A stretch of DNA of 16,655 nt, taken from a virus. Its lineage: Duplodnaviria > Heunggongvirae > Uroviricota > Caudoviricetes. Where the stretch lies: positions 1-16,655 of the IMG/VR virus record IMGVR_UViG_2698536647_000004. One strand, given 5' to 3'. This document shows, piece after piece, positions 1 to 15,381 of the stretch (position 1 is its first letter; each line of letters starts with the position of its first letter). A program made the position numbers and the translations under genes. The notes below the pieces were generated by a model. It had not been told where the DNA came from and made no database searches. It was given only the letters and a program-made list of their open reading frames with translations.

Positions 1-233
1 TCCATGTGCCACGGGCAAAGATCGGAAGGGTTACGCCAGTACCAGCGCAGCCGTTTTTCCATTTCAGGCGCATAACGCTGAACCCAGCGGTAAATCGTGG
101 AGTGATCGACATTCACTCCGCGTTCAGCCAGCATCTCCTGCAGCTCACGGTAACTGATGCCGTATTTGCAGTACCAGCGTACGGCCCACAGAATGATGTC
201 ACGCTGAAAATGCCGGCCTTTGAATGGGTTCAT
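1..233 (-). CDS. tnpA: IS26 transposase, N-terminal 77 codons (truncated by window edge)
   Basis: ATG at 233-231 (minus); the frame runs open to position 1. The translation matches the IS26 transposase N-terminus from memory. Confidence 0.9.
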   Translation of the reverse strand, partial: MNPFKGRHFQRDIILWAVRWYCKYGISYRELQEMLAERGVNVDHSTIYRWVQRYAPEMEKRLRWYWRNPSDLCPWHM

Positions 234-296
234 GTGCAGCTCCATCAGCAAAAGGGGATGATAAGTTTATCACCACCGACTATTTGCAACAGTGCC
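1..296 (-). mobile_element. IS26 (IS6 family), left end only; element continues beyond the window start
   Basis: Minus strand of 283-296 reads GGCACTGTTGCAAA, the 14-bp IS26 terminal inverted repeat, followed by the characteristic leader and the tnpA start MNPFKGRHFQRDIILWAVRWYCKYGISYRELQEMLAERGVNVDHSTIYRWVQRYAPEMEKRLRWYWRNP, recalled from memory as IS26 Tnp26. Confidence 0.9.
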
Positions 297-1240
297 GTTT
301 GCCTTTCCTCATCATCGGTATTGGTCTTAGGAGCACGCAGATCGACTTTGATTTGCTCCAGCATCAGGGGCGGCACTTTCCCGCCATGCGCCTCGATGAA
401 TTCAGCTGCTTCCAGCACTGACCAGTTATTTTCACGCTTTCGTTCGTATGCCAGCTTAACAATGCCAGCTTGCCCCATAGACAAAGCGTGCTTTTCCGCC
501 TCCCGGCTTTCTTTTCGATAGTTATTCCGGATGCTGTAAATGGTGTTGATCAGACTGCTTATCTGCGCGGAACAGCTGTTTAGCATGCTCGCGATACGGT
601 ATTCAGGCGGAGTACCTTCATCATCGTCTTTTTGCTGATCGCGCATTTCCTGCACCAGGCGAATACACGTATCCCTGGCGTTCTCCAGCATAAGGAGATG
701 AGAAAGAGACTTTTCAAGAAGAGTGGTTTCCAGAACATCGGCCCCGGACCGACGCAACATAGCGCGCGCGGCCTTCCGCGCTTCAACGTTATCTATCAGG
801 TAATCGCCAGCTTCGAATTCAAAGCGTTCACCATCATCATCCAGGGTGTCGCGTTCCAGGCGATCACGTAAGGTACGGTGGGCGCGGGTGATCACGTCAT
901 GATCATCAGAACGATCATTTATGCGCTTATTTTGGCGCTTAGCGTTCTCGACTGCGGCTCTGACAACAGCATTAACTCTTTGTTTTTCAGCTATTTCAGC
1001 CACAATATGATCACCTGCACGTTGATCATTAGCGTGATCAATGATCATGCTTTTTAGTGGTTTCCTGACAGGCTTATTTGGCTTGCGGCTGTCCGCTGTC
1101 CTGGTGTCTTCTTTGAAGGCACGGAGATAACGACGTGCGGTATTAGGGTTAAGATTAAACTCGGCGGCATACTGTGCGATGGTGTAACCACCATCCCGCG
1201 CCAGGCGAGCAAAATTCTTCTTGTGATCGTCCCAGGTCAC
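245..1240 (-). CDS. pacA: P1 pacA-like terminase small subunit, 3' end interrupted by IS26; native codons 1240..297 (about 315 aa), last 16 codons of the ORF are read from the IS26 terminus
   Basis: GTG start at 1240 preceded by GGAAG (5-nt spacer) and an in-frame TAA. N-terminal HTH-like segment [24 protein letters not shown] pac-like TGATCA hexamer cluster lies inside the 5' third of the gene, as described for P1 pacA. The ORF tail [16 protein letters not shown] is encoded by the IS26 inverted repeat. Assignment rests on the pac site and context, not on sequence recall. Confidence 0.55.
862..1047. other. pac: pac-like packaging site: two clusters of TGATCA / TGATCG hexamers (each containing a GATC Dam site)
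   Basis: Hexamers on the plus strand: CGATCA 862-867, TGATCA 889-894, TGATCA 900-905, CGATCA 913-918, then TGATCA 1008-1013, 1023-1028, 1035-1040, 1042-1047. This is 4 + 4 hexamers separated by about 90 bp. P1 pac is described as 4 + 3 TGATCA/G hexamers flanking the cleavage region inside pacA. Confidence 0.6.
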
Positions 1241-1325
1241 TTATGCTTCCTTTCGTAAAAACTCTTTTTGACGCGAGGGTAACGAAAGTCACATGTCAAA
1301 AGGCCCGGAACGGGCAAGCAATCAA

Positions 1326-1778
1326 TCAGATACGTGCGGATGTGGCATTACCGTAATAACGGTGCTGACGGGCCACCTTATTGAAAAGTTGACGCGCCAT
1401 TACCCAAGGCTGGTGCTCCCGGCGTTCCTTTTCGTCCTGCGTCATATAGAGTTCGTTCTGGAGTTTTTCATCAAACCGGCGCGGAGCGCGGCTACGGCGA
1501 AAGAATTCAGGATTCAGAGAGTGGATCTGAAATCTACGTGGGCGTGTACTGTCATCAATCAAAACAGACGAATACTTAGACACAGCGATAGCCTTTAAGC
1601 GCAGATAAACATCGCGCTTATCGACATCCAGATGCGGGTATTCCTTTTCAAGAATTGCTGCGAGTTCTTTCGCTGATAGAAGAGATTTAGTGCGGATCAT
1701 GTAATCCGCAATCTCGTACGATGTTATTCGTGAGTGATTTATTTCCATGAAGTGGCGTCCCTGCCAGTTAAGTAACAT
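1326..1778 (-). CDS. Hypothetical 150-aa protein, positionally equivalent to P1 lpa (late promoter activator, gene 10)
   Basis: ORF with ATG at 1778 preceded by AGGTGA. It lies directly upstream of the pacA-like gene and directly downstream of a C1-operator-like motif plus a candidate promoter (TTGCTA, 16 bp, TATTAT on the minus strand, about 1824-1851). I do not recall the Lpa sequence, so the call is by position and size only. Confidence 0.4.
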   Translation of the reverse strand: MLLNWQGRHFMEINHSRITSYEIADYMIRTKSLLSAKELAAILEKEYPHLDVDKRDVYLRLKAIAVSKYSSVLIDDSTRPRRFQIHSLNPEFFRRSRAPRRFDEKLQNELYMTQDEKERREHQPWVMARQLFNKVARQHRYYGNATSARI

Positions 1779-1848
1779 CCTGTCACCTACTGATTAGCCC
1801 ATGTCAACTAATCAACGTGGAATATAATACCCTCGATTAAAGAAATAG

Positions 1849-1865
1849 CAACACATTAGAGCAAT
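1849..1865 (-). promoter_or_regulatory. C1-repressor-operator-like 17-mer ATTGCTCTAATGTGTTG (13/17 to the consensus ATTGCTCTAATAAATTT as I recall it)
   Basis: Read on the minus strand directly after the stop of the DUF968-like gene and upstream of the lpa-like ORF. P1 gene 10 is known to be C1-controlled. Confidence 0.5.
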
Positions 1866-1866
1866 T

Positions 1867-2898
1867 TTATCTAACGCTCGACGAATGACTTGTGATAACG
1901 CCGACTCCAAGCGCGTAATCAAAGAACAATCGTTGATGCATCGCCAGCCTGCCGTGTGTTTTCTCCCAATTATCGCGGTCACGCTCAATATCACGCTGGC
2001 ATGACTGGCACAGAGGAATAGCATAAATGTCATGCGCGCATAATCGACTATGACGAACTATATAAGGCGTAATGTGAGCGCCAGCTCCCGCCGCTCCACA
2101 CCCACAGCATGGACGGGAAGCAACAAAGTCCATGTACTCAGGTAATTTTAGCGATTGCAGTTTTGGTATTTTGAAATGCTCGGAGTCAACATCCACAGGG
2201 CATACTTTTGCACGCATCGGCGCAGCGCGTTCTTCCATCATCTGAACATATGCTGTAGCGCGATCGTCATACGGGCGAATATCCGCCTCTTTCAGAGGTC
2301 CGCTATCCTGCGTTGCGGCTTTCATCTTATTTATTGATATACGGCAAACTTCTTCCGGCATCAGGTGCATCATGTTGCGCATGAAAGCCCACCAGCACAG
2401 TTCCTGAATACTTAAATCATGGCTATCTGAAAGGCCCATTTCCTGACGGGCGACATCCAGTATCCAGTTAACGCGATTATTATGCAGCGTTTCTTTCAGC
2501 TCATTAAAACCACGCATCCGGTAATGGTTATCGTGATGCCAGCACAGCAACACCGCGCTATTGTCTCGTTCTGCGTGGACAATATGGTTGTCACACCAGC
2601 TACGATCTGCGGCCTGGCATTGCCCCTCTTTCCTGCGCAACCACGCCACCAGCGCGTCAATTCCACCAATACGGCGAAACAGTTCATCGCTGTTAAAAAA
2701 CGGCTGCAACGCCTCATTTGTTGCCATAGTTTGCTCGGAAACAACGAGGCCGTCGTCCATGTGCTCGATTAACTCACGCGGCACCGGCTCCATAATAAAT
2801 TTACGGCCAGCCTCCACCAGCTTTCTGACTTCCTGATCCACTTTGAATGTGGCGACGCCAAGCTCTTTTTGTACAAAGGGAGTAATTACGGCTTTCAC
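1867..2898 (-). CDS. DUF968-like prophage protein (343 aa) with a C-terminal Cys/His cluster; positionally like P1 pdcA
   Basis: GTG start at 2898 preceded by AAGGTG. The C-terminus carries CCGCG...AHITPY...[15 protein letters not shown], a putative zinc-binding or HNH-like motif. Resemblance to the DUF968 family (e.g. E. coli YdfU) is by recall. Confidence 0.55.
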
Positions 2899-2925
2899 AT
2901 CACACCTTTCATCACTGATTGGGCT

Positions 2926-3105
2926 TTATCTGCTGCCCGGCATTCTCTGTTTAAGCACAACCATTTCCTGACGGCATAACACAGCAATAGCGGTCCTGGC
3001 ACCAATTTGCTTACCAACCAGGTATTGCTTTACCTTGCGGCGACTCACGCCATCAAGAAGCATCTTTAACGCTTCACGGGACAATTTGTTGTATTTGCGT
3101 GCCAT
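2926..3105 (-). CDS. Small basic protein (59 aa) apparently translationally coupled to doc; positionally like P1 pdcB
   Basis: ATG at 3105 lies 4 nt after the doc stop with GGAG 7 nt upstream. Translation MARKYNKLSREALKMLLDGVSRRKVKQYLVGKQIGARTAIAVLCRQEMVVLKQRMPGSR. The longer ORF to 3126 would overlap doc. Confidence 0.45.
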   Translation of the reverse strand: MARKYNKLSREALKMLLDGVSRRKVKQYLVGKQIGARTAIAVLCRQEMVVLKQRMPGSR

Positions 3106-3109
3106 TAAT

Positions 3110-3490
3110 CTACTCCGCAGAACCATACAATCTACGTAACGTGTCGGCGACAGAAGATACAGATATCTCTCCGGTCGCAGCCCCTACGGTAAGGTCTGCC
3201 AGTTCAGGTGAATCAAATACCTGCACCCCGTTACGGCGTAGAAATAACAGCGCACTGTTTAGCGCGGTACGCTTATTGGCATCATTGAATATATGCCCTC
3301 TCGCTGTAGCCACCAGGTAGGTGGCGGAGACTTCGAAAAGGTCGGTGATCTCTTCGTAGGCAACTCTGGCCTGAACTCTCCCGATAATGGCCTCTGCCCT
3401 ACCCGGATCTGACATTCCCGGCAGGCCGCCGTAGCGGTTTATATTCGCATCATGAAGCGCAATAAGTTCTTCCGGTGATATATGCCTCAT
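3110..3490 (-). CDS. doc: Doc toxin (Fic/Doc family kinase) of the phd-doc addiction module
   Basis: 126 aa starting [16 protein letters not shown], with the Fic/Doc motif HIFNDANKR. Closely resembles P1 Doc from memory. Its start overlaps the phd stop (TAATG). Confidence 0.95.
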
Positions 3491-3711
3491 TATCGGTTAA
3501 CCAGTTCCTTGTTGGTGGAGTCCAGGGTGTCAAACAGGGATGCAAATTCAGCATCCAGCGCCGCTTTTTTGTAGGCTTCGAAAGTAGCCTTGCTGACAAT
3601 TACTGCTGGCTCACGGCCTCTGCGGGTGATTTCAACCTCTTCCCCGGCCTCAACATTGTTGAGCACTTCAGAAAGGTTGCCGCGCGCGGTACGGAAGTTA
3701 ATGGATTGCAT
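3490..3711 (-). CDS. phd: Phd antitoxin (prevent-host-death)
   Basis: 73 aa, [49 protein letters not shown]..., matching P1 Phd from memory. RBS GAGGT upstream of the ATG at 3711. Confidence 0.95.
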
Positions 3712-3760
3712 AAATACCTCGTGTACTCGTTATGTGTACACAATTATAAACTTCACAGGC
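3712..3760 (-). promoter_or_regulatory. phd-doc promoter with palindromic operator half-sites
   Basis: On the minus strand a perfect TATAAT (plus 3743-3748) is followed by the palindrome TGTGTACACA (3733-3742) and GAGTACAC (3721-3729). The P1 phd-doc operon is autoregulated through palindromic operator sites overlapping its promoter. Confidence 0.6.
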
Positions 3761-3887
3761 ATAAAGCACCAGCACTTTGCGGCTTAACAAACCTCTAGGC
3801 AGGTCATTCGTAGCCTAATGTCCGAACTGCTAAAGCATCCAAGTTGCTGTAGAATCACCGCCAATTACATAAGCCTGAAATAAGTGG

Positions 3888-5450
3888 ATGAAAATGACAA
3901 GTATTCAACAACGTGCAGAGCTTCATCGTCAAATCTGGCAAATTGCTAACGATGTCAGGGGTTCGGTCGATGGATGGGATTTTAAGCAATACGTTCTGGG
4001 CGCACTTTTCTACCGTTTTATCAGCGAAAATTTTTCCAGCTATATTGAAGCCGGTGATGACAGTATCTGTTATGCGAAACTGGATGACAGCGTAATTACT
4101 GATGACATTAAAGACGATGCCATCAAAACTAAAGGCTACTTCATCTACCCCAGTCAGCTTTTCTGCAACGTAGCGGCGAAAGCAAATACCAATGACAGAC
4201 TGAATGCAGATTTAAACAGCATCTTCGTTGCTATCGAAAGTTCTGCTTACGGTTATCCTTCAGAAGCTGACATCAAAGGTTTGTTTGCTGATTTCGATAC
4301 CACCAGTAACCGCCTGGGTAACACCGTTAAGGATAAAAATGCCCGCCTGGCTGCGGTTCTGAAAGGGGTTGAAGGGTTAAAACTTGGTGACTTCAACGAA
4401 CATCAGATTGACCTGTTCGGTGATGCCTATGAGTTCCTGATCTCTAACTATGCGGCAAATGCCGGTAAGTCAGGCGGCGAGTTCTTTACACCGCAGCACG
4501 TCTCTAAGCTGATTGCACAACTGGCTATGCACGGGCAGACCAACGTTAACAAAATCTACGACCCGGCAGCGGGTTCCGGCTCACTGTTGTTGCAGGCGAA
4601 AAAACAGTTTGATAACCACATCATCGAAGAAGGCTTTTTCGGTCAGGAAATCAACCATACGACCTATAACCTGGCGCGTATGAACATGTTTTTGCACAAT
4701 ATCAACTACGACAAGTTTGATATCAAGCTGGGTAATACACTGACTGAGCCGCACTTCAGAGATGAAAAACCGTTTGATGCCATCGTTTCTAACCCGCCGT
4801 ATTCGGTGAAATGGATTGGCAGCGATGACCCGACGCTGATTAACGATGAACGTTTTGCCCCGGCTGGCGTTCTGGCCCCCAAATCCAAAGCTGACTTTGC
4901 GTTTGTATTACATGCGCTGAACTATCTTTCGGCCAAAGGTCGCGCTGCGATTGTCTGCTTCCCGGGCATTTTTTACCGTGGCGGCGCGGAGCAGAAAATC
5001 CGTCAGTATCTGGTCGATAATAACTATGTCGAAACCGTAATTTCACTGGCTCCGAACCTGTTCTTTGGCACCACCATTGCCGTAAACATTCTGGTTCTGT
5101 CTAAACATAAAACGGATACCAACGTTCAGTTTATTGACGCCAGCGAACTGTTCAAAAAAGAGACTAACAACAATATCCTGACCGATGCCCATATCGAACA
5201 GATTATGCAGGTATTTGCCAGCAAGGAAGATGTTGCTCATCTGGCGAAATCTGTTGCGTTTGAGACTGTTGTCGCGAATGACTATAACCTGTCGGTGAGC
5301 AGCTATGTGGAAGCGAAAGATACTCGCGAAATTATCGATATCGCTGAGCTGAATGCTGAGCTGAAAACCACGGTCAGCAAAATCGACCAGTTGCGCAAAG
5401 ATATTGATGCGATTGTGGCTGAAATTGAAGGCTGCGAGGTGCAGAAATGA
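3888..5450 (+). CDS. hsdM: Type I restriction-modification N6-adenine DNA methyltransferase subunit HsdM (type IC, EcoR124-like)
   Basis: 520 aa with the AdoMet motif [10 protein letters not shown] and the catalytic NPPY motif (SNPPYS). It overlaps hsdS by 4 nt (ATGA). Confidence 0.97.
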
Positions 5451-6652
5451 GCGAGATGAGTTATCTGGAAAAATTGCTGGATGGGGTTGAGGTTGAGTGG
5501 AAGACACTTGGGCAAACTTGCAAAATTGAAACAGGAAAGCTTAATGCGAATGCGGCTGTTGATGATGGAGAGTATATGTTCTTCACGACAGCCAAAGAGA
5601 CAAGCAAAATTGATAAATTCCGCTGGGATACAGAGGCATTGCTGATTGCAGGCAATGCGAATGTTGGTGAGGTGAAGCATTACATCGGCAAGTTTGAGGC
5701 TTATCAGCGCACCTATGTTCTGACAAATTTCGACGAAAATGTAAGTGTTAGATTTTTGTATTTTGTGCTTAGCCATAGCCTGAAGAAATATCTCGAGGAA
5801 AGAACAAATAGCGCGGCAATGACATATATCGTGCTATCAACCTTAGAGAATTTCCCTATCCCCATCCCCTGCCCGGATAATCCGGAAAAATCCCTTGCCA
5901 TCCAGTCTGAAATCGTTCGGATTCTGGATAAATTTACTGCACTTACCGCTGAGCTTACCGCTGAGCTTAACATGCGTAAAAAACAGTACAACTACTATCG
6001 CGACCAGTTGTTGAGTTTTAAAGATGGTGAGGTTGAGTGGAAGACTTTGGGGGAAATTGGAGATTTTACATATGGATATGCAGCCAAAGCCATGGATTCA
6101 GGAGATGCCCGTTTCGTGAGAATTACTGACATAAATAAAGACGGGAAGCTATCGAAAGAAAACCCAATGTACGTTGAATTAAATGAGGAAAATGAGAAAT
6201 ATACCTTAGACAAAAATGATTTACTCATGGCAAGAACTGGGGCAACCTTTGGTAAAACAATGATTTTTGAAGAAGATTATCCAGCAGTATACGCTGGTTT
6301 TTTAATAAAGTTGAACCTAAATAAAACGATTATTAATGCCAAATATTACTGGCACTTTGCACAAAGTGATTTTTTTTGGGAACAGGCTAATAAATTAGTA
6401 TCTGGTGGTGGGCAACCACAGTTTAATGCTAATGCACTGAAACAAGTCAGAGTACCTATTCCATACCCATCTCACCCTCAAAAATCTTTAGACGAACAGG
6501 GGCGTATTGTGGATATTCTGGATAAGTTTGATGCAATCGCAGCTTCCATCACCGAAGGTCTTCCGCGTGAAATCGAGTTGCGCCAGAAACAATACGAATA
6601 CTACCGTGATTTACTGTTCAGTTTCCCGAAACCTGAAACTGCCAGTAATTAA
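5447..6652 (+). CDS. hsdS: Type I restriction-modification specificity subunit HsdS with two target-recognition domains
   Basis: 401 aa. Conserved central repeat region ([26 protein letters not shown]) and the matching C-terminal conserved region ([18 protein letters not shown]). The N-terminal motif VEVEWKTLG is repeated at the start of TRD2 (GEVEWKTLG). Confidence 0.95.
5944..5967 (+). repeat. Perfect 2 x 12-bp tandem repeat (TACCGCTGAGCT) encoding TAEL-TAEL in the HsdS central spacer region
   Basis: Direct read: 5944-5955 equals 5956-5967, preceded by a degenerate copy encoding TAL. In type IC systems the copy number of this repeat sets the spacer length of the recognition site (two copies in EcoR124I, three in EcoR124II, as I recall). 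Confidence 0.85.
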
Positions 6653-6679
6653 TTGATCATTGCTACCGATCGGACCACC

Positions 6680-6745
6680 TTAACACCCGGTCAGTATATA
6701 GACTATTTTTTACGCGCCGGAAGTCACCATTACCCCCCTTCCGGC
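6680..6745 (+). promoter_or_regulatory. Candidate hsdR promoter (TTAACA 6680-6685, TATATA 6695-6700 region) and a leader stem-loop (GCCGGAAG 6716-6723 / CTTCCGGC 6738-6745)
   Basis: Type IC hsdR is known to have its own promoter separate from hsdMS. The hexamers are weak; the 8-bp inverted repeat with a 14-nt loop is read directly from the sequence. Confidence 0.35.
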
Positions 6746-6773
6746 CCTTGCCAGACGGCACAAAGGATGCGCT

Positions 6774-9700
6774 ATGACTCATCAGACACACACCATTGCT
6801 GAATCCAATAACTTTATCGTTCTTGATAAGTACATCAAAGCTGAGCCAACAGGCGACAGCTACCAGAGCGAATCGGACCTGGAACGTGAACTGATTCAGG
6901 ACCTGCAAAATCAGGGTTATGAATTTATTTCCGTAAAATCACAGTCGGCAATGCTGTCCAATGTTCGGGAACAGCTTCAGAGCCTCAATGGTGTGATGTT
7001 TAATGACAGCGAGTGGCGGCGCTTCACGGAGCAGTATCTGGACAACCCCAGCGATGGTATTCTGGATAAAACCCGTAAAATCCATATCGACTATATCTGC
7101 GACTTTATTTTTGATGACGGGCGACTTGAGAACATCTATTTGATAGATAAAAAGAATCTCATGCGCAATAAGGTGCAGATTATCCAGCAGTTTGAACAGA
7201 CGGGTTCTCATGCTAACCGTTATGACGTCACGATCCTGGTTAATGGTTTACCGCTGGTGCAAATCGAACTAAAAAAACGCGGGGTGGCGATTCGTGAGGC
7301 TTTCAACCAGATACATCGTTACAGTAAAGAGAGTTTTAACAGCGAAAATTCCCTGTTTAAGTATCTGCAACTGTTTGTCATTTCTAACGGCACCGATACC
7401 CGTTATTTTGCCAACACGACAAAGCGCGATAAAAACAGTTTTGACTTCACCATGAATTGGGCGAAATCAGACAACACGCTGATTAAAGACCTCAAAGACT
7501 TTACCGCTACCTTTTTCCAGAAACATACTCTGCTGAATGTTCTGGTGAACTACAGCGTTTTTGACAGTAGTCAGACGCTACTGGTGATGCGACCGTACCA
7601 GATTGCCGCCACCGAGCGCATTCTGTGGAAAATTAAGAGTTCCTTTACAGCGAAGAACTGGTCAAAACCGGAAAGCGGTGGGTATATCTGGCACACTACC
7701 GGTTCTGGTAAAACCCTCACCAGCTTTAAAGCCGCGCGTCTGGCAACAGAGCTGGACTTTATTGATAAAGTCTTCTTTGTGGTCGACAGGAAAGACCTCG
7801 ATTACCAGACCATGAAGGAATATCAGCGTTTTTCGCCAGACAGCGTCAACGGCTCGGAAAATACCGCAGGCCTTAAACGAAATCTGGATAAGGACGATAA
7901 CAAAATTATCGTCACTACTATTCAGAAACTCAATAACCTGATGAAAGCAGAAAGCGACCTGCCTGTATATAATCAGCAAGTGGTGTTTATATTTGATGAA
8001 TGCCACCGCAGCCAGTTTGGAGAAGCGCAGAAAAACCTGAAGAAGAAATTCAAACGCTATTATCAGTTTGGTTTTACCGGCACACCTATTTTCCCGGAAA
8101 ACGCCTTAGGCTCAGAAACGACCGCCAGCGTATTTGGTCGTGAATTGCATTCGTATGTAATTACCGATGCGATTCGTGATGAAAAAGTGCTCAAATTCAA
8201 GGTGGACTACAACGATGTGCGGCCACAGTTTAAGTCTTTAGAGACAGAAACTGACGAGAAAAAACTAAGTGCGGCTGAAAATCAGCAGGCGTTTCTTCAT
8301 CCCATGCGTATACAGGAAATTACGCAATATATTCTGAATAACTTCCGCCAGAAGACGCACCGTACTTTCCCTGGCGCAAAAGGTTTTAATGCTATGTTGG
8401 CAGTGAGCAGCGTGGATGCTGCAAAAGCCTATTACGCGGCGTTTAAACGGTTACAAGAGGAAGCCGCTAATAAATCTGCAACTTATAAACCGCTGCGTGT
8501 TGCGACAATCTTCTCCTTTGCCGCTAATGAAGAACAAAATGCCATTGGTGAAATTTCCGATGAAACTTTTGATACCAGCGCAATGGACAGCAGTGCTAAA
8601 GAGTTTCTTGACGCTGCAATTCGTGAGTATAACAGCTATTTTAAAACTAACTTCAGCACCGACGGTAACGGTTTTCAGAACTACTATCGCGATTTAGCCC
8701 AACGGGTTAAAAATCAGGATATCGATCTGTTAATTGTCGTTGGGATGTTTTTAACCGGCTTCGACGCTCCAACATTGAACACGCTATTCGTCGATAAAAA
8801 CTTGCGTTTTCACGGCCTGATGCAGGCATTTTCCCGCACCAACCGCATTTATAACGCCACTAAAACCTTCGGTAACATTGTCACTTTTCGGGATCTGGAA
8901 CGCTCAACCATTGATGCCATAACGCTGTTTGGTGATAAAAATACCAAAAATGTGGTGTTAGAAAAGAGTTATGCAGAGTATATGGAAGGTTTTACTGATG
9001 CTGCCACCGGTGAAGCCAAACGCGGCTTTATGGCAGTAGTTTCAGAACTGGAACAACGGTTCCCTGACCCTGCCAGTATTGAAAGTGAAAAAGAGAAGAA
9101 AGACTTCGTTAAACTGTTTGGCGAATACCTGCGTGCCGAGAACATCCTGCAAAACTATGATGAATTTGCCACGCTAAAAGCCCTGCAACAAATCGATCTT
9201 AGCGATCCTGTTGCGGTAGAAAAATTCAAAGCAGAACATTATGTGGATGATGAAAAGTTCGCTGAATTGCAAACAATTCGTCTCCCTGCTGAACGCAAGA
9301 TTCAGGATTATCGTTCTGCCTATAACGATATTCGCGACTGGCAGCGCCGTGAGAAAGAAGCTGAGAAAAAAGAGAAATCAACCACTGACTGGGATGACGT
9401 GGTTTTTGAGGTCGATTTGCTGAAGTCTCAGGAAATAAACCTGGATTATATCCTTGGACTGATTTTCGAACACAACAGACAAAATAAAGGCAAGGGCGAA
9501 ATGATCGAAGAGGTCAAACGCTTAATTCGTTCAAGCCTGGGGAACCGGGCGAAAGAGGGCCTGATGGTCGATTTTATTCAGCAAACGAACCTGGATGATT
9601 TACCAGACAAAGCCAGTATCATTGAGGCATTCTTTACGTTTGCTCAACGCGAACAGCAACGTGAAGCAGAAGCATTGATAAAAGAAGAAAATCTCAATGA

Positions 9701-9890
9701 AGATGCAGCAAAACGCTATATTCGCACGTCTTTAAAACGCGAATACGCCACCGAAAATGGCACAGAATTAAACGAAACATTACCAAAACTTAGTCCGTTG
9801 AATCCGCAATATAAAACGAAAAAACAGGCAGTTTTCCAGAAAATCGTCTCGTTTATTGAGAAGTTTAAAGGCGTAGGCGGAAAAATATAG
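6774..9890 (+). CDS. hsdR: Type I restriction enzyme R subunit HsdR (type IC; same 1038-aa length I recall for EcoR124I HsdR)
   Basis: PD-(D/E)xK-type nuclease motif in the N-terminal domain ([19 protein letters not shown]), helicase Walker A TGSGKT and a DECH box ([10 protein letters not shown]). RBS AAGGATG before the ATG at 6774. Confidence 0.97.
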
Positions 9891-9903
9891 CCCAATTCGT
9901 GTT

Positions 9904-9937
9904 TTTCTTGCGGGTTCTTAATTAAACCCGCAAGAGC
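9904..9937. other. Stable stem-loop (stem of at least 9 bp, CTTGCGGGT / ACCCGCAAG) just after the hsdR stop; function unknown
   Basis: Direct read. The T-run is on the 5' side of the stem on the plus strand, so it is not a canonical intrinsic terminator in either orientation. Confidence 0.5.
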
Positions 9938-9969
9938 TCGTGGGGTTCCAAATGGCTAATATACTCCCC

Positions 9970-10056
9970 TTACCCATGCGCGACGATGCCGCCAAAAGTG
10001 ATAGAGAACAGCCAGAAATAGATCGCGGCCATAATGATTTTGAATGCCGTGTTCAT
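9970..10056 (-). CDS. Candidate small hydrophobic protein (28 aa, MNTAFKIIMAAIYFWLFSITFGGIVAHG)
   Basis: ATG at 10056 with AGGAG 8 nt upstream. The whole peptide looks like a single transmembrane helix. Not in the supplied ORF track (too short). It lies between a C1-operator-like site and the end of hsdR. Confidence 0.3.
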   Translation of the reverse strand: MNTAFKIIMAAIYFWLFSITFGGIVAHG

Positions 10057-10084
10057 ATTTTCAGCTCCTGTGATTGATTGGATA

Positions 10085-10115
10085 CATGCCGCGCCTTGCG
10101 GCATGTTTTTATTTT
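10085..10115 (+). terminator. Rho-independent terminator, plus orientation
   Basis: GC-rich 8-bp stem CATGCCGC (10085-10092) / GCGGCATG (10098-10105) with loop GCCTT, followed by TTTTTATTTT. It is the first canonical terminator downstream of hsdR. Confidence 0.7.
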
Positions 10116-10138
10116 CACTTTCTCTGTTTTAAAAATCA

Positions 10139-10155
10139 AGATTTATTAGAGCAAT
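10139..10155 (-). promoter_or_regulatory. C1-repressor-operator-like 17-mer ATTGCTCTAATAAATCT (16/17 to the recalled consensus)
   Basis: Read on the minus strand immediately after the stop of the HAD-like gene. The weak promoter-like hexamers TTGATT and GAAAAT follow it. Confidence 0.6.
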
Positions 10156-10661
10156 TATTGTTGATGAAGAAGCGCATTTTCGTACTCTCTGACCATTAAC
10201 GTAAGCACGCCGTGATGCCTGAAAACACGCGCTACTTCAATCTTATCTTCCAGCGCGAACGCAATTTTACTTAGACCAATTTTCTTAAGGAGATCAATCT
10301 TTGCTGGACCATCATTTCTGTCATCGGTGGCAGGACGCATAGATAGCAAAGGCTCAGCCCCATTTGTTACGTGCTTACGCAACCAGGCTCGTGTTTTATC
10401 CCTTGCGATCTCACAGCGCCCGGTTACAAACCAGACCGTGTAAACGTTAAATAACTGGCGCACCATATCAATAACTGGAGTGATGGGAGTATCGGTGTCA
10501 CAGGCGAGATTAAACTCGTTCCAGTCCTTTGTTACTGCACCTTTACCTGGTGGCGGAAGCAAATGCAGTCTGTCTTCAGTTGCCTCTGATATTGTTCCAT
10601 CAATATCGACTATGACGATATACGGACGTTCCTGGTGTGCGTGTTTATTGAAAATACTCAA
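10155..10661 (-). CDS. HAD-superfamily phosphatase-like protein (168 aa)
   Basis: TTG start at 10661 preceded by a strong AGGAGG (4-5 nt spacer) and an in-frame upstream stop. HAD motif I DIDGT (VIVDIDGTIS). Possibly equivalent to a P1 phosphatase gene, but I cannot confirm that from memory. Confidence 0.6.
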   Translation of the reverse strand: MSIFNKHAHQERPYIVIVDIDGTISEATEDRLHLLPPPGKGAVTKDWNEFNLACDTDTPITPVIDMVRQLFNVYTVWFVTGRCEIARDKTRAWLRKHVTNGAEPLLSMRPATDDRNDGPAKIDLLKKIGLSKIAFALEDKIEVARVFRHHGVLTLMVREYENALLHQQ

Positions 10662-10732
10662 ATGCCCTCCTCATTGGACGAAAAAATGCTGGTGGGCGCA
10701 CTCCACCAACATTAAAAGTGACACTGTAACTA

Positions 10733-11995
10733 TCAGCGAACGTAAATAGTGCCGCCGTTCTCTTTTTCCCATGCATCGCTACGTGCATAGCAAACATCGA
10801 GAAGTCTTCTTGCCGCTGTTTCCTCTAAACCCAATTCGACAACCAACTGTTCATGACGGCGGGTAACCACATCAAACAACGTATGCAGCCCTTTAGTTGC
10901 CAGTTCATCAATGAATTCCGGTTCGAACGGTAGCTCTGCATCTGCCAACATAACCTCTTGCGCCCACTCGACACGGCGGACCAGTTCCGGGCGGCGGCTT
11001 TCCATCTCTTTACAGATCAATTCATGGAAGAACTCTACCCAACCTTCCGGCTGGAACTCGCGGAAAATGGCCAACGGCTGGAAGTTTGGCATCAACCATT
11101 CGTTGATACGGATATCAATGGCATAGCCCATGTCGCAGCAGAACTGATAAGCAAAGTCCAGCTTAGAAACGATATAAGGACGCTCGTTATTGAACTCTTT
11201 AGGCGATGAGATCCCATAAGCCAGGAGGCGCGGGAAGAATGAGATTTGCCCTAACGTCGGATGAAGTTTGCTTGCAGGGAAACGGCGCTCAGTAATGCCA
11301 TACATTTCCTTCTTGAGCGTCGCAAATTTGGCATTCTCATTAACCAGCGCGGTAACCTCTGCTTTTTTATTAGCAAATGCCACGCGCGCTTCGCTTGCAT
11401 CTTTAATAGTTTTTTTGAGCTGTTGGTTAAGGTCGGCGACCTGTTTACGCAGTTCCTGCCGCTCGCTTTTAGCTTTGTTATAGCGTTTCTCAAGGTTAAA
11501 AGGATCAAGTTTCATGATCTCTTTATATTGAGATTTTAGCGTTGAAATCTGTGAGTTCCGCAGTTCAACCATCGCGGTCATTTCATTGAGTTTTGTTTCC
11601 AGCTCAATGCTTATACGTTCGGCATTATCAGCACGCTGGTTGGCGTCATGCGTCGCATCGTCGATCGCATCCTGTTGCTGGCGTTTCAAATGTTCAATTT
11701 GCAGCTGAAGCTCTTCAATTTCTTTACCCTTCAGACCGAGATCCAACTGCATATTTTCAGCTGCATCTACCAGGGAGTTATGGCTATCAGCTTCTGCGTT
11801 ATAAACATCAATAAGCTGTGCGTGAAGCATCTCCGCTGACTGAACCGCATTATCAAAAAAACGTGCTGTGAGGTCATCACAACTAACGCGGCGTTGCGCG
11901 GCCCGGATGTTCTGGATAATGGCCGGGATACCGGCATTCAGGACATCAGGGATAGATACATTTTCGATTGATTGGTTTTGTGCTGAAGTGCTCAT
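10733..11995 (-). CDS. Hypothetical 420-aa protein: long N-terminal coiled-coil region plus a C-terminal domain of unknown function
   Basis: ATG at 11995. Residues about 90-230 are heptad-rich (EIEELQLQIEHLKRQQQ...ELRKQVADLNQQLKK). I do not recognise any catalytic motif in the C-terminal 190 aa. Confidence 0.7.
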   Translation of the reverse strand: MSTSAQNQSIENVSIPDVLNAGIPAIIQNIRAAQRRVSCDDLTARFFDNAVQSAEMLHAQLIDVYNAEADSHNSLVDAAENMQLDLGLKGKEIEELQLQIEHLKRQQQDAIDDATHDANQRADNAERISIELETKLNEMTAMVELRNSQISTLKSQYKEIMKLDPFNLEKRYNKAKSERQELRKQVADLNQQLKKTIKDASEARVAFANKKAEVTALVNENAKFATLKKEMYGITERRFPASKLHPTLGQISFFPRLLAYGISSPKEFNNERPYIVSKLDFAYQFCCDMGYAIDIRINEWLMPNFQPLAIFREFQPEGWVEFFHELICKEMESRRPELVRRVEWAQEVMLADAELPFEPEFIDELATKGLHTLFDVVTRRHEQLVVELGLEETAARRLLDVCYARSDAWEKENGGTIYVR

Positions 11996-11996
11996 T

Positions 11997-12215
11997 TCAA
12001 AGTTCCGTATTAGCTTGTGCTTCGGTCATTTTTCCTAAGTATGAAGGAGGAAGGACTACGCAATTTGTATCCAGTCCCTCACCTATGGCAGCCTGTAAAA
12101 TTCTGGCTAAGGTGAGTCTCTTGTTGCGATACCTGGTGATGACATGCCTGATACCGCCGGTCGGCGTAACAAAGGCGATCAGCCAGTAGTGATATTTCCG
12201 TCGGAATGGCCACAT
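11997..12215 (-). CDS. Hypothetical small protein (72 aa if started at the ATG at 12215), stop 1 nt before the ATG of the 420-aa gene
   Basis: The ORF track gives 11997..12272, but that 5' extension overlaps the minus-strand terminator. The ATG at 12215 has AGGGTG upstream. The tight spacing to the next gene suggests coupling. Confidence 0.4.
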   Translation of the reverse strand: MWPFRRKYHYWLIAFVTPTGGIRHVITRYRNKRLTLARILQAAIGEGLDTNCVVLPPSYLGKMTEAQANTEL

Positions 12216-12229
12216 AGTGCACCCTGTAG

Positions 12230-12246
12230 ATTGCTCTAATAAAAAA
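12230..12246 (+). promoter_or_regulatory. C1-repressor-operator-like 17-mer ATTGCTCTAATAAAAAA (14/17), plus orientation
   Basis: Direct read. It forms an inverted pair with the site at 12279-12295. Confidence 0.5.
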
Positions 12247-12267
12247 CGTGATGAGTGTACATCACGT
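12237..12267 (-). terminator. Rho-independent terminator, minus orientation, ending the glycosyltransferase-like operon
   Basis: Stem ACGTGATG (12246-12253) / CATCACGT (12260-12267) with a 6-nt loop. On the minus strand the stem is followed by TTTTTTATT. Confidence 0.7.
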
Positions 12268-12278
12268 TTCAAAAATAT

Positions 12279-12295
12279 GGAATTATTAGAGCAAT
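12279..12295 (-). promoter_or_regulatory. C1-repressor-operator-like 17-mer ATTGCTCTAATAATTCC (14/17), minus orientation
   Basis: Read on the minus strand directly after the stop of the glycosyltransferase-like gene. The following 30 nt closely resemble the sequence after the site at 10139-10155. Confidence 0.55.
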
Positions 12296-12296
12296 A

Positions 12297-12998
12297 TTAT
12301 TCTGATTCTCGCTCAAAAAACGAGCTGATAAGGGGAAGCCAATCCTCTGACACTTCGCGAGGTCGCGGTTTGCCGTGGAAAAAGATTATTCGGCAGTCTT
12401 TTGGTAATGCCCCATTCCCCCTGGAGTAACGCGCGCTCGCATATTTCGAACCAGGTTCCACAACATCGGCCTTGTAACTTACAAACCATCCTGGATACAG
12501 ATCCTGAAATGCTGGTGTATCATCGCCCATAACCTTTCGTAAGAACCCCTGGTCACCCCAGCACTCAGTAGTGACACAACGAGAAATCCAACCTTCCGGA
12601 TCTTGCCAGAATGAACTCCAGATATGCGCTTTAACACTATTTGGTATCCACAGGGCACCGCTGCCACGATATTGTGGATGGTAAAAATCCCTAAGCATGG
12701 TGAAGCTGGTTGGTGGATGCTCTAGGATTGGGCGTATATCACCGGCAATAACCGTGTCCAAATCCAGATAGAACAGATCATCGGTTATATCCGGTCGGAA
12801 CAACTCGATTTTCGCCCACCAGCCACGGCACTTTTGCCACTGGTTGATCAATGGGACAACTTTGACGCCAGGTACATGTAAACGCTTCAGGTCTGTCAGG
12901 CAAATAATTTCATAGCCTTTTGGCAGTTGATTAACCAGCCACTGCACATCGGAAGCGTTATAGTCACCACCAGAGCGAAAAACTAAAGCAATCTTCAT
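12297..12998 (-). CDS. Hypothetical protein (233 aa), possibly a glycosyltransferase (DxD-like LDLD motif)
   Basis: ATG at 12998 overlaps the stop of the upstream phosphatase gene (ATGA). The N-terminus [13 protein letters not shown] and [12 protein letters not shown] suggest a nucleotide-sugar transferase fold, but this is weak. Confidence 0.45.
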
Positions 12999-13687
12999 GC
13001 TGCACCATCACCTTTCACTTTCATCAATGTCAGGTTTCCGCAAAATACGGCACCAGTGTCGATATACTGCTGATTCCAGAATGTCTTCGGGCTTTTCACC
13101 GGAGTGTGACCAAAGATAAAACGATCTGCGCCCGAAATTTCGCCACCAATATCATCCATCGAATCACTGATACGCTCGCGCGCCCAGACAACGTTGAAAA
13201 GCGGCACCTCCTTACCGAATTGGTATTCATTATCCGGATAGTCGGCATGGGCTATAACGATAGTTTCTTGCCCGGTGTTCAACTCAATGATATAGGGCAG
13301 ACGCTTTACCAGCTCCACCAGCGCCCAGGCTAATATTTCCTGATCAGTGTCCAGCATGAAGAACCATTGTCCGCCATTCATTAGCCAGTTATTCACGTTG
13401 CCATCTGGACTTAACGCATCAATCATCAGCCGCTCATGGTTCCCCATCACTGCCCTGAACCAGGGCATCTGCAATAGTTCCAGACATTCGACATTTTCAG
13501 TACCGCGATCGATAAGGTCGCCGACCGATATCAGTAAATCCTGCGCCGGGTCAAAATCCACACGATGGAGTTCGGACATCAGTCTGGTGTAGCAACCATG
13601 CAGATCACCAACAACCCAGACATTCCTGTATTTGGTACCGTCGATACGGTGATAAATTGTGGGTGCCATCATGTATTCTTCAGCCAT
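12995..13687 (-). CDS. Ser/Thr protein phosphatase of the lambda PPase (calcineurin-like metallophosphoesterase) family; likely P1 ppp-like
   Basis: Motifs GDLHGC, GDLIDRG, GNHE and a C-terminal GHTP. Strongly resembles the lambda phosphatase (nin region ORF221) from memory. The true start may be the ATG at 13669, which overlaps the upstream stop by 1 nt. Confidence 0.85.
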
Positions 13688-14295
13688 TCTTTAAGAGTCA
13701 TCTGTGGAATGCCTCCCATTTTCCCGCATGAAACAACGTCAATCTGTTCACGCGCAGACTGGAATAACAAAGGCAGGTGACTTAGATTTTTTGGCGTGCC
13801 GCCGGAGTGAACGCGTGGTTCTTGTGTAGCGTCAACGCCCACCAGGGCGACATGTTTGAATCCGATATGGAAAGCCAGGTTCAGAGCGCCATATGCACTA
13901 TTGCCGCTGGCAATTTCATTCTCATCTTCGCAAAGTCCGAAATGTGCGGACCAACGCCACGCCCACCACTCGGGAGAATTCGTATTTTTTGGCTCCATGC
14001 CACGTTCAGCCACACGACGGAAGCACAGAACGCCGTCTCTGACTTCACGTTCTTTAACATCGGGTAGTGCCATGCAATAACAAACACCACGGCGACGGCG
14101 GCCACGACCAACGCGCCGCATATTGTCTGGCGATGGATCAAGTGTGAAAAAATAAGAAGCGCGGTTCAGCCAGTCGATGGCCCCATTGACCGCTATAATC
14201 GGCACTCCGCGCGGCGCAACAAAGTTTGCGGCGCTTGGGCCACTGCCGACGATAATAACGCGATCACTGCCTCTAAATTTATTCTTGGGAAACAT
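13669..14295 (-). CDS. MptE-like / DUF115-like protein, paralog A (208 aa)
   Basis: Motifs VIIVGSGPS ... IIAVNGAID ... [12 protein letters not shown] ... VALVGVDAT resemble the Rossmann-like core of PF01973 (MptE/Maf family), by recall. It is a paralog of the next gene. Confidence 0.45.
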
Positions 14296-14855
14296 TGAAT
14301 TGCACAGCTCCTACTTGCATTCAAAATATGTAAATCTGCGTGTTTTTTGCGGGTATCCAGGAACTGCTGTTGCCATTTTGAAATAGACACCTGCGTTGGA
14401 TTCCGTAGGGCTTGAGGGTGTGCTCCATGCCAATGAAGGCCGTTTTGCAGAGAACAGTCATAGCCGACTAATACAACTACTTCAGCCCCTGATTCAGCCG
14501 CCAGACTGATAGTCTGCGCGCCGCTATTAACCCCTTCAGCCGGTCCACAATATCGCCTGTACTCCAACGAAAATGATTTCGCCGCCGCCAGGTTGGCTGT
14601 CACTTTGCGGAATCTCCCTCCCGGTATGGTGGATCCGTATTGCTTCCACCATGACAAATCACCGGCGTATAAGGCATAAATGTCATCGAACATCTGCCAG
14701 GAATTGTTAACCGCGATGATTGAACAGCCAGTTTTTTCTATAGCAGCACAGTCCTCACGAGTGAGTGACGGACCGCTACCGACACAAAAAACAGTCCTAG
14801 TCGCCCTGGGTGGTATGTTCATTCTCAGCTGCAAATTCAGCCTCCAGGCGAGCAT
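14193..14855 (-). CDS. MptE-like / DUF115-like protein, paralog B (about 208-220 aa)
   Basis: Motifs VFCVGSGPS ... IIAVNNSWQ ... SGAQTISLAA ... VVLVGYDCS. Start uncertain: ATG 14855, TTG 14834 (GGAGG 6 nt upstream) or ATG 14822. The 3' end overlaps paralog A by 103 nt in another frame. Confidence 0.45.
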   Translation of the reverse strand: MLAWRLNLQLRMNIPPRATRTVFCVGSGPSLTREDCAAIEKTGCSIIAVNNSWQMFDDIYALYAGDLSWWKQYGSTIPGGRFRKVTANLAAAKSFSLEYRRYCGPAEGVNSGAQTISLAAESGAEVVVLVGYDCSLQNGLHWHGAHPQALRNPTQVSISKWQQQFLDTRKKHADLHILNASRSCAIQCFPRINLEAVIALLSSAVAQAPQTLLRRAECRL

Positions 14856-14994
14856 TCATTTCAGCGATTACCGGGTCCACTACAGCATCTGCTTCCTGTT
14901 CATTACGCGGCATGATCGATGCCAGCGATTCATAATTAGCCTTGGATGACACAATTATTCTCCCGATGTTAATGTGCGCTATATCAAAGAGCAC
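14797..14994 (-). CDS. Questionable small ORF (65 aa, or 38 aa from an internal ATG)
   Basis: ORF track only. There is no convincing RBS at either candidate start. Confidence 0.25.
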   Translation of the reverse strand: MLFDIAHINIGRIIVSSKANYESLASIMPRNEQEADAVVDPVIAEMNARLEAEFAAENEHTTQGD

Positions 14995-15018
14995 ATATGC
15001 ACTAATTAATTTATTATT

Positions 15019-15381
15019 TTAAGCAGCATACAACCACTTGTCGCCGTTCAATACATGCTCAATAGCCTCACCCTTTTTAAGGCTTATGTATTCCAGGATG
15101 GCGGTTATCGCTTGTTCTGCACCATACGCAAGAACGACGTAGTAACCTTCCTCTCTAAGCCTGCGCATCCAGGCGATCTGCTCTTTCGTCGGGGCTTTAC
15201 CATTTGGTTCTTTAAGCTCAATTCGCATGCCGTGATAAATACCGCATGCTTTATCGAGACTCATGTCCGGATAACCTTTTTTCTGCCCTTCAGCCTTCAT
15301 TTTCCCGGCGGTTGCTTTTGAACGTTTCCCTCTGAAGTGGTTTACTGAATTTGGCCACCTGAACAGAGGTGATATGCTCAC
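15019..15381 (-). pseudogene. VRR-NUC domain nuclease gene, 5' end replaced by the IS911 terminus (native part 15019..15332)
   Basis: Core KGYPDMSL ... IELKEPNGKAPTKEQIAWMRRLREEGYYVVLAYG fits the VRR-NUC pattern (G.PD ... E.K ... Q). The first 16 codons of the ORF are encoded by IS911 inverted-repeat sequence, and the usual N-terminal portion of the domain is missing. Confidence 0.65.

What the first reader, a model, noticed from the sequence alone, without database searches (positions are those of the whole stretch)
862..1047. pac-like hexamer array inside the pacA-like gene
Eight TGATCA / TGATCG hexamers lie in two clusters about 90 bp apart within the 5' third of the putative terminase small-subunit gene. 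The P1 packaging site is described as 4 + 3 such hexamers whose Dam methylation controls cleavage. This supports calling the gene pacA and the element P1-like.
Basis: partly seen in the sequence, partly recalled or inferred. Interest (0 to 1): 0.55.

Follow-up and report, generated by a model that had tools for sequence, protein, structure and literature searches.

The report
Phage P1 packaging site, pacase genes broken
This is the well-known DNA packaging start site (pac) of bacteriophage P1, sitting intact inside a P1-derived plasmid segment whose packaging-enzyme gene has been cut off by an IS26 insertion sequence, so it is an ordinary, already-understood feature in a crippled copy of the phage.

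Summary
Eight TGATCA/TGATCG hexamers lie at 861-917 and 1008-1047, and this interval holds 8 of the window's 58 GATC sites in 1.1% of its length. The interval is 97% identical to the P1 pac site, and all hexamers, the IHF site and the mapped cleavage positions align. It lies at nt 194-380 of pacA, on the minus strand. Upstream are the P1 late promoter LPpac, lpa and its C1 operator.

Three refinements:
- The canonical pac is 4+3 hexamers (window ~887-1048). The eighth hexamer (861-866) is also present in P1 but lies outside minimal pac and is not conserved in diverged relatives.
- pacA here is truncated by IS26 at window 296/297, leaving about 315 of 397 codons, and pacB is absent from the window. 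The site is therefore an intact cis signal next to a broken pacase. It could fire only if PacA and PacB come from elsewhere.
- The hexamers are conserved islands in the most variable stretch of pacA. A comparable two-cluster GATC array recurs in PacA homologs only 24-28% identical to it.

Verdict: already known, low interest.

The parts
887..1048 (-). Canonical (minimal) P1-type pac site: HEX4 cluster, IHF site, cleavage region and HEX3 cluster
   Evidence: 97% identical to P1 pac, with no internal gaps. The extent is inferred from the first to the seventh hexamer and the 161-bp size given in PMC10028697.
1008..1047 (-). HEX4 cluster: four TGATCA hexamers (1042-1047, 1035-1040, 1023-1028, 1008-1013), each with a Dam GATC site
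   Evidence: The first three are invariant in 55 distinct natural alleles. The three inner ones (all but 1042-1047) are also invariant in phages and plasmids of ~67% nt identity.
889..917 (-). HEX3 cluster: TGATCG (912-917), TGATCA (900-905), TGATCA (889-894)
   Evidence: All three are at identical positions in the JK004/Salmonella group.
861..866 (-). Eighth hexamer TGATCG, outside minimal pac. Present in P1 but not conserved in diverged relatives; role unknown.
   Evidence: conserved in 53 of 55 P1-group alleles; absent at this position in JK004 and Salmonella relatives.
956..965 (.). Positions homologous to the mapped primary pac cleavage sites of P1 (both strands)
   Evidence: P1 annotation AF234172, mapped onto the window with offset 1212. 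There is one substitution (T to A on the coding strand) at window 959.
973..985 (-). IHF binding site AAACAAAGAGTTA, identical to P1
297..1240 (-). pacA, truncated: GTG start at 1238-1240; about 315 codons of P1-type PacA, then read-through into IS26 (ORF ends at 245)
   Evidence: phrog_1711 'terminase' at E = 9e-157, covering profile positions 1-323 of 417. It lacks the conserved C-terminal VDTGGYGD...LYGDDD.
1..296 (-). IS26 end (terminal inverted repeat at 283-296; transposase gene runs off the left edge of the window) that truncates pacA
   Evidence: 100% matches to annotated IS26 copies. P1 homology stops at 297.
1276..1294 (-). Late promoter LPpac (-10 TACCCT at 1276-1281; Lpa-dependent -22 box ATGTGACTT at 1286-1294), identical to P1
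1326..1778 (-). lpa, the late-promoter activator (150 aa)
   Evidence: Pfam BPP1_LPA at E = 1e-56. 2 mismatches in 453 nt against P1.
1824..1865 (-). Plpa promoter and C1 operator Olpa (one substitution in the operator)

Best explanation
The array is the bacteriophage P1-type packaging initiation site (pac), embedded in the coding sequence of pacA.

Mechanism, as established for P1 and transferred here on the strength of 97% identity. The pacase (PacA + PacB) recognises the two clusters of TGATCR hexamers. IHF (with HU) binds between them at AAACAAAGAGTTA and bends the DNA. Pacase then makes staggered cuts over roughly one helical turn in the centre (window ~956-965). Each hexamer holds a Dam GATC site. 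Pacase binds pac that is not fully methylated but cuts only after methylation of the hexamers, which limits cutting on a concatemer. Headful packaging then proceeds in one direction, towards pacB, c1 and lox. In this window that means leftwards, into IS26.

In this copy the cis site is intact, but the trans-acting enzyme is not. IS26 has removed the last ~82 codons of pacA, including its most conserved C-terminal motif, and pacB is absent from the window. The segment is therefore part of a decayed P1-derived (IncY-type) plasmid backbone. Its pac can act only if a co-resident or superinfecting P1-like phage supplies pacase, in which case the DNA to its left would be packaged and transduced.

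Shown here: the hexamers, their identity and alignment with P1 pac, and the truncation. Taken from the literature: the hexamer/Dam/IHF mechanism. Inferred: the packaging defect and the possibility of packaging in trans. From memory: the direction of packaging.
For: Hexamer positions and enrichment.

Identity with P1: 97% identity to P1 pac with all hexamers aligned, and 98% identity over pacA-lpa to P1, P7, RCS47, SJ46 and others. The P1 reference annotation of cleavage sites, IHF site, LPpac, lpa, Plpa and Olpa all maps onto the window, mostly identically.

Selection on the hexamers:
- In 55 distinct natural alleles, 4/42 hexamer positions vary, against 42/118 non-hexamer pac positions (p = 7e-4) and 38/260 flank positions.
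- Against relatives of ~67% nt identity, 35/36 positions of six hexamers are invariant, against 53/140 non-hexamer positions (p = 1e-11). This includes third codon positions, 11/12 against 16/47.
- Two-cluster GATC arrays sit at the same place in PacA homologs of 24-53% identity.

Literature:
- A 161-bp pac inside pacA with seven TGATCA/G Dam hexamers (HEX4/HEX3), an IHF site and a central cleavage site. Synonymous mutation of the hexamers lowered P1 titre about 9-fold (PMC10028697).
- Sequenced virion ends agree with the Sternberg-Coulby cleavage sites (PMC5557969).
- pac-bearing phagemids and chromosomal pac insertions are packaged by helper P1 (PMC10999674; PMC11260489).

Truncation. Loss of pacB in the nearest plasmids.
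Against: Nothing contradicts the identification as pac. The caveats concern activity.
- There are 11 substitutions relative to P1 in or immediately beside pac (window 875-1033), one of them at a mapped cleavage position (959). None is in a hexamer or in the IHF site. Their effect on cleavage efficiency is untested.
- The window starts inside IS26, so I cannot exclude that the 3' part of pacA and pacB survive beyond it, or elsewhere in the same cell.
- No methylation or virion-end data exist for this sequence.
- The direction of packaging is taken from my own knowledge of P1 biology and was not confirmed in a paper I could read.
Confidence: 0.9

Rival explanations
1. The locus is part of a fully functional P1-like phage-plasmid, and the pac site serves its own packaging.
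For: pac, LPpac, lpa and its C1 operator are intact and nearly identical to P1. Many P1-like phage-plasmids with complete pacA exist: 575 plasmid records cover at least 80% of the query.
Against: P1 homology ends at window 297, against the IS26 terminal repeat. PacA lacks residues ~317-397, which include the family's most conserved C-terminal motif. pacB is not in the window. In the two plasmids that are 100% identical over 297-16655, the first 1259 nt of pacB are also missing. The backbone is also interrupted by IS30 on the right.
Confidence: 0.06
2. The hexamers are a by-product of protein coding (repeated Asp-His/Asp-Gln/Asp-Arg codon pairs, GAT-CAx) or of chance, with no function at the DNA level.
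For: Six of the eight hexamers fall in the same codon register as xxT-GAT-CRx, encoding D-H/Q/R. The Pantoea homologs encode (S/N)DH repeats.
Against: 0 of 400 simulations reached 8 hexamers. The protein segment encoded by pac is the least conserved part of PacA, yet the hexamers are invariant, including at synonymous third positions (11/12 against 16/47). Two hexamers are in a different register (M-I-I and V-I-T) but keep the same DNA sequence. Synonymous recoding of the hexamers reduces P1 packaging (PMC10028697).
Confidence: 0.01
3. The GATC cluster serves another Dam/SeqA-dependent function, such as a replication origin (like oriC or P1 oriR, which also carry GATC clusters) or methylation-dependent transcriptional control of pacA.
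For: GATC clusters at roughly helical-turn spacing (7, 12, 15 and 12, 11 nt) are the kind of target SeqA binds (my own knowledge).
Against: The sequence aligns to P1 pac inside pacA and not to oriR or oriL. The P1 annotation and virion-end mapping place the packaging cuts exactly between the clusters. A secondary interaction with SeqA or other GATC-binding proteins is not excluded, but it would be additional and not an alternative.
Confidence: 0.03

Closest known systems
Bacteriophage P1 pac site (Sternberg & Coulby 1987, 1990; annotated in GenBank AF234172, cleavage at 90804-90813)
   Same: Same position inside pacA, same eight hexamers at the same spacing, identical IHF site, homologous cleavage positions, and the same upstream LPpac/lpa/Olpa control region. 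Overall 97% nt identity across pac.
   Different: Eleven point substitutions in or immediately beside pac (window 875-1033), all outside the hexamers and the IHF site, one at a cleavage position. The pacA gene that contains the site is cut by IS26 about 590 bp downstream of pac (~660 bp from the cleavage site), and pacB is missing from the window.
pac regions of P7, RCS47, SJ46, JL22 and several hundred P1-like (IncY) phage-plasmids
   Same: 96-100% identity over pacA and the same hexamers. The backbone variant with a type I R-M system in place of the P1 pmgT-humD region is described for P1-like plasmids (PMC6906374, PMC9603915).
   Different: Most of those carry complete pacA-pacB. This copy belongs to a sub-lineage (pCE1537-E and pECTOK-001_2 are its nearest relatives) in which IS26 has deleted pacB and the pacA 3' end. 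The window carries a further 635-bp deletion next to IS26 relative to pCE1537-E.
Engineered P1 phagemids and chromosomal pac insertions (Westwater 2002; Huang & Masters 2014, as cited in PMC10999674 and PMC11260489)
   Same: A pac site without its own pacase, dependent on a helper P1 for cleavage and packaging.
   Different: Those are deliberate constructs. Here the arrangement arose naturally by IS26-mediated deletion, and whether it is ever packaged is untested.
pac sites inside small-terminase genes of other headful phages (P22 gene 3, SPP1 gene 1)
   Same: The packaging signal lies within the gene for the recognition subunit, and packaging is processive, unidirectional and headful (PMC11260489; otherwise my own knowledge).
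   Different: P1-type pac is much larger and bipartite, is built of repeated Dam-site hexamers, depends on IHF/HU and is controlled by methylation. PacA shows only weak N-terminal similarity to small-terminase families.

Membership tests
P1-type pac site | Two clusters of TGATCA/G hexamers (4 + 3) within about 160 bp | tested here: met
   Seven hexamers lie between 889 and 1047 (159 bp), in clusters of 4 and 3, plus an eighth at 861-866 that P1 also has.
P1-type pac site | Each hexamer contains a Dam (GATC) site | tested here: met
   All eight contain GATC. Actual methylation was not measured.
P1-type pac site | IHF binding site and cleavage region between the clusters | tested here: met
   The IHF site at 973-985 is identical to P1. 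The cleavage positions map to 956-965, with one substitution.
P1-type pac site | Located within the 5' part of pacA, downstream of the Lpa-dependent late promoter LPpac | tested here: met
   Gene nt 194-352 (194-380 including the eighth hexamer). The LPpac -10 and -22 boxes are identical to P1, and lpa is present.
P1-type pac site | Sequence homology to P1 pac | tested here: met
   97% identity over 231 nt, with no internal gaps.
P1-type pac site | Cleaved by PacA + PacB in a methylation-dependent way, producing the virion DNA end | not testable with these tools
   This needs a pacase cleavage assay or virion-end sequencing.
Functional P1-like phage-plasmid (Punavirus) | Complete pacA and pacB (pacase) | tested here: not met
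   pacA is truncated at codon ~315 of 397 by IS26, and pacB is absent from the window. The nearest plasmids also lack the pacB 5' 1259 nt. The rest of the source genome cannot be seen.
PacA family (phrog_1711) | Full-length match to the family profile, including the conserved C-terminal VDxGGxGD...LYGDDD | tested here: not met
   The match covers profile positions 1-323 of 417 only, and the C-terminal motif is missing. It is a truncated member.

The most novel reading that the evidence does not exclude
An intact pac site has been kept on a P1-derived resistance or virulence plasmid that has lost its own pacase. It may act as a natural 'phagemid' signal. Any P1-like phage that enters or co-resides would cut here and package about 100 kb of plasmid DNA leftwards from pac at high frequency, so the decayed plasmid hitch-hikes like a satellite.

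The two-cluster Dam-hexamer architecture may also be an ancient, family-wide property of PacA genes. That would include diverged Pantoea and Citrobacter phage-plasmids, some with six or seven hexamers at exact 12-nt spacing, in a group where pacA may have been reported as absent. Whether these plasmids actually belong to that subgroup (P1-g2) was not checked.
Probability: 0.3. Interest if true: 0.4.

Novelty: already known. Interest (0 to 1): 0.15.

Why it matters
As an identification it adds nothing new. The P1 pac site has been characterised since 1987 and is used routinely in P1/PAC cloning vectors and phagemids. It is useful for annotation in three ways. It firmly marks the segment as P1-derived. 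It shows that the packaging module is broken, so this element should not be scored as an active phage-plasmid. It also flags a cis signal that could let helper P1-like phages mobilise the adjoining IS26-bounded DNA. The comparative result gives a simple sequence signature for predicting pac sites in uncharacterised P1-like phage-plasmids: hexamers stand out as conserved islands in a hypervariable linker, and the array recurs in PacA homologs of 24-53% identity.

Tried and rejected
- The primary papers were not available: Łobocka 2004 (PMC523184) and Sternberg & Coulby 1990 (PMC54894). The mechanism therefore rests on secondary descriptions (PMC10028697, PMC11260489, PMC5557969, PMC10999674) and on the GenBank annotation.
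- The first enrichment script timed out. It was replaced by a Markov simulation.
- I looked for the window's exact IS26::pacA junction in complete E. coli genomes. No exact match was found: 5 genomes carry a similar but different junction, at 94% over the 301-nt probe. The two plasmids that are 100% identical over 297-16655 have IS26 placed 635 bp further away (pCE1537-E) or at a different cut point and inverted (pECTOK-001_2). The window's source replicon was therefore not identified.
- 'Salmonella phage SJ1' (OQ595196) is 100% identical over the pacA 5' half, but its record has back-to-back CDSs with no intergenic DNA. It looked unreliable, so I did not use it.
- Pfam and NCBIfam gave no family for PacA beyond a sub-threshold HTH. 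Only PHROGs classifies it.
- The coding-artefact and replication-origin readings were considered and rejected (see rival explanations).

Full report
**Observation.** Reading the window and searching for TGATCR and GATC confirms the eight hexamers. On the minus strand they read:
- TGATCA at 1042-1047, 1035-1040, 1023-1028 and 1008-1013;
- TGATCG at 912-917;
- TGATCA at 900-905 and 889-894;
- TGATCG at 861-866.

The two clusters are 90 bp apart. The interval holds 8 of the window's 58 GATC sites in 1.1% of its length. GATC is not over-represented in the window as a whole (58 observed, 63.6 expected). In 400 first-order Markov simulations, the densest 190-bp interval never held more than 5 hexamers. 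A corrected Poisson estimate is 2.6e-10. All 8 GATC sites in the array carry the hexamer flanks, against 12 of 50 elsewhere (p = 6.6e-5).

**Identity.** Window 290/297-1800 matches pacA-lpa of P7, P1, RCS47, JL22, SJ46 and other Punavirus records at 97.7-98.5%. Aligned base by base, window 840-1070 (minus strand) is 97% identical to the P1 pac region, with no internal gaps and every hexamer conserved. P1 therefore also has the eighth hexamer.

The richly annotated P1 record AF234172 maps onto the window with a constant offset of 1212:
- the four primary pac cleavage positions fall at 956-965, with one substitution at 959;
- the IHF site AAACAAAGAGTTA is at 973-985, identical;
- the pacA GTG start is at 1238-1240;
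- the late promoter LPpac has its -10 at 1276-1281 and its -22 box at 1286-1294, both identical;
- lpa is at 1326-1778, with 2 mismatches;
- Plpa and the C1 operator Olpa are at 1824-1865, with one operator substitution.

The literature I could read describes a 161-bp pac inside pacA. It has seven TGATCA/G hexamers carrying Dam sites (HEX4 and HEX3), an IHF site and a central cleavage site. Pacase binds the hemimethylated site, and further methylation is needed for cleavage. Synonymous recoding of the hexamers lowered P1 titre about 9-fold (PMC10028697; also PMC11260489). Sequencing of P1 virion ends reproduced the Sternberg-Coulby cut sites (PMC5557969).

**Refinement 1: 4+3 versus 4+4.** The seven canonical hexamers span 889-1047 (159 bp). 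The eighth, at 861-866, lies 22 bp beyond. It is present in 53 of 55 distinct P1-group alleles. It is absent at that position in Cronobacter phage JK004 and in Salmonella plasmids of ~67% nt identity. In those relatives the outermost HEX4 hexamer (1042-1047) is also absent, and six hexamers (3+3) stay in exactly the same register. The eighth hexamer is therefore probably not part of the essential site.

**Refinement 2: the hexamers are under selection as DNA.**
- Among 55 distinct 5' alleles from 84 natural pacA copies, 4/42 hexamer positions vary. This compares with 42/118 non-hexamer positions inside pac (Fisher p = 7e-4) and 38/260 in the flanks.
- Between the P1 group and the JK004 group, 35/36 positions of the six shared hexamers are invariant, against 53/140 non-hexamer positions (p = 1e-11). 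The contrast holds at third codon positions: 11/12 against 16/47.
- The window's own differences from P1 follow the same pattern. Eleven of 30 substitutions over 1.6 kb fall at 875-1033, and none is in a hexamer.
- Six hexamers sit in one codon register (xxT-GAT-CRx, coding D-H/Q/R) and two sit in another (M-I-I and V-I-T). The shared feature is thus the DNA word and not the peptide.
- The protein alignment shows that pac occupies a poorly conserved linker (residues ~45-125) between a conserved N-terminal HTH and a conserved C-terminal region.

**Refinement 3: the enzyme is broken.** P1 homology ends at window 297, directly against the terminal repeat of IS26 (283-296). Positions 1-296 are 100% identical to annotated IS26 copies. 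The ORF 245-1240 matches PacA up to residue ~316 of 397 and then reads into IS26. It loses the VDTGGYGD...LYGDDD segment, which is conserved even in 24%-identical homologs. pacB, which follows pacA in P1, is not in the window.

The best plasmid matches are pCE1537-E (IncY) and pECTOK-001_2, both 100% identical over 297-16655. They also have IS26 in pacA, but 137-138 bp further downstream in the gene, and they lack the first 1259 nt of pacB. Relative to pCE1537-E, the window carries an additional 635-bp deletion next to IS26. A third junction, near codon 309, occurs in CX-series E. coli plasmids. Loss of the pacase genes through IS26 is thus recurrent in this lineage. I could not find the window's exact junction in the collections, and the window begins inside IS26. 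The statement that no pacase is available in the source cell is therefore an inference.

**Mechanism proposed.** The steps established for P1 are transferred here on the basis of near-identity. Pacase recognises the two hexamer clusters. IHF/HU bend the intervening DNA. Staggered cuts are made at ~956-965 once the GATC sites are methylated. Headful packaging then proceeds in one direction, towards pacB-c1-lox, which is leftwards in this window. That direction comes from my own knowledge of P1 and was not verified in a paper I could read.

Specific to this copy, and inferred: the site is silent unless PacA and PacB come from another P1-like element. If they do, the plasmid DNA to the left of pac would be packaged. 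This is what happens with engineered pac phagemids and chromosomal pac insertions (PMC10999674; Huang & Masters 2014 as cited).

**Wider family.** PacA homologs of 53% identity (Candidatus Pantoea alvi) and of 24-28% identity (Citrobacter freundii p2-S1-CHI-03-B, Pantoea agglomerans pFC61912-B_D, P. conspicua, Pantoea sp. GD03673) lie upstream of pacB-like terminase genes where the flanking genes are annotated. The two scanned, from Citrobacter and P. agglomerans, belong to phrog_1711. In the other diverged loci examined (the four Pantoea loci, JK004 and S. arizonae), the densest GATC interval of the ~6-kb (1.8 kb for S. arizonae) locus starts at the first hexamer cluster. In Citrobacter it starts 58 nt upstream of the gene and covers its 5′ cluster. 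Each shows one large cluster and a smaller one 100-150 nt downstream. In Pantoea, six or seven hexamers sit at exact 12-nt spacing. Pfeifer et al. (PMC7969092) reported pacA as conserved only in P1 subgroup 1. These diverged genes may be the unrecognised counterpart, but I did not check subgroup membership.

**Context of the window.** From left to right:
- IS26 end, truncated pacA with pac, lpa, pdcB (DUF968), pdcA, doc, phd;
- a type I R-M system: hsdM 3888-5450, hsdS 5447-6652, and hsdR 6774-9890 with an EcoR124-type C-terminal domain;
- a PNKP-like phosphatase;
- pmgS-like and other P1 backbone genes;
- IS30.

Type I R-M replacing the P1 pmgT-humD variable region has been described in P1-like plasmids (PMC6906374, PMC9603915).

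**Verdict.** The finding is correct and the feature is already known. The added value is the truncation of pacA, the status of the eighth hexamer, and the comparative evidence for selection on the hexamers. Interest is low.

Noticed in passing
window 1-296 / 297: IS26 end (terminal repeat at 283-296) abuts pacA codon ~315. Related plasmids have IS26 at other points in pacA (codon ~360 in pCE1537-E and pECTOK-001_2; codon ~309 in the CX-series plasmids). The window has a further 635-bp deletion next to IS26 relative to pCE1537-E. Loss of pacB and the pacA 3' end through IS26 is therefore recurrent.
   Followed up: yes
L005 2483-3694; L008 1811-3085; L012, L013, L016 from 2501: Distant PacA homologs (24-53% aa identity) in Citrobacter and Pantoea phage-plasmid-like replicons carry their own two-cluster GATC/TGATCR array in the 5' third of the gene. 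The Citrobacter and P. agglomerans homologs, the two scanned, belong to phrog_1711. In Pantoea, six or seven hexamers sit at exact 12-nt spacing and encode (S/N)DH repeats. PMC7969092 says P1 subgroup 2 lacks pacA; these genes may be the diverged counterpart, but subgroup membership was not checked.
   Followed up: partly
window 3888-9890: A complete type I restriction-modification operon: hsdM 520 aa, hsdS 401 aa, and hsdR 1038 aa with an EcoR124_C domain. It sits next to phd-doc in place of the P1 humD-pmgT variable region. The P1 GenBank record itself notes homology of the doc region to plasmid sequence upstream of the EcoDXXI hsd locus. The recognition specificity was not examined.
   Followed up: partly
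window 15675-16655 (and ~15333-15693): An IS30-family transposase gene runs off the right end of the window and interrupts the P1-like backbone. The backbone just before it (window 15333-15693) has a 90%-identical copy elsewhere in pECTOK-001_2.
   Followed up: no
window 1849-1865: The C1 operator Olpa differs from P1 by one base (ATTGCTCTAATGTGTTG against ...GTATTG). The effect on C1 repression of lpa and pacA is unknown.
   Followed up: no
window 547-552, 636-641, 1224-1229: Three further TGATCR hexamers lie inside pacA, outside pac (gene cores 690, 601 and 13). They are shared with P1 and P7 but are not conserved in JK004 or the Salmonella relatives, so they are probably incidental.
   Followed up: partly
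plasmid CP099035.1 (hit H144): A PacA match that starts only at residue 65, exactly where the first pac hexamer begins. The record has two PacA places. This could be a rearrangement or insertion endpoint at pac itself.
   Followed up: no
L009 (OQ595196.1, 'Salmonella phage SJ1', 24.5 kb): The record is 100% identical to the window over the pacA 5' half. However, its annotated CDSs abut one another with no intergenic DNA, and it ends in a 'mobile element protein'. It looks like a fragmentary or artificially joined record and not a complete phage genome.
   Followed up: no
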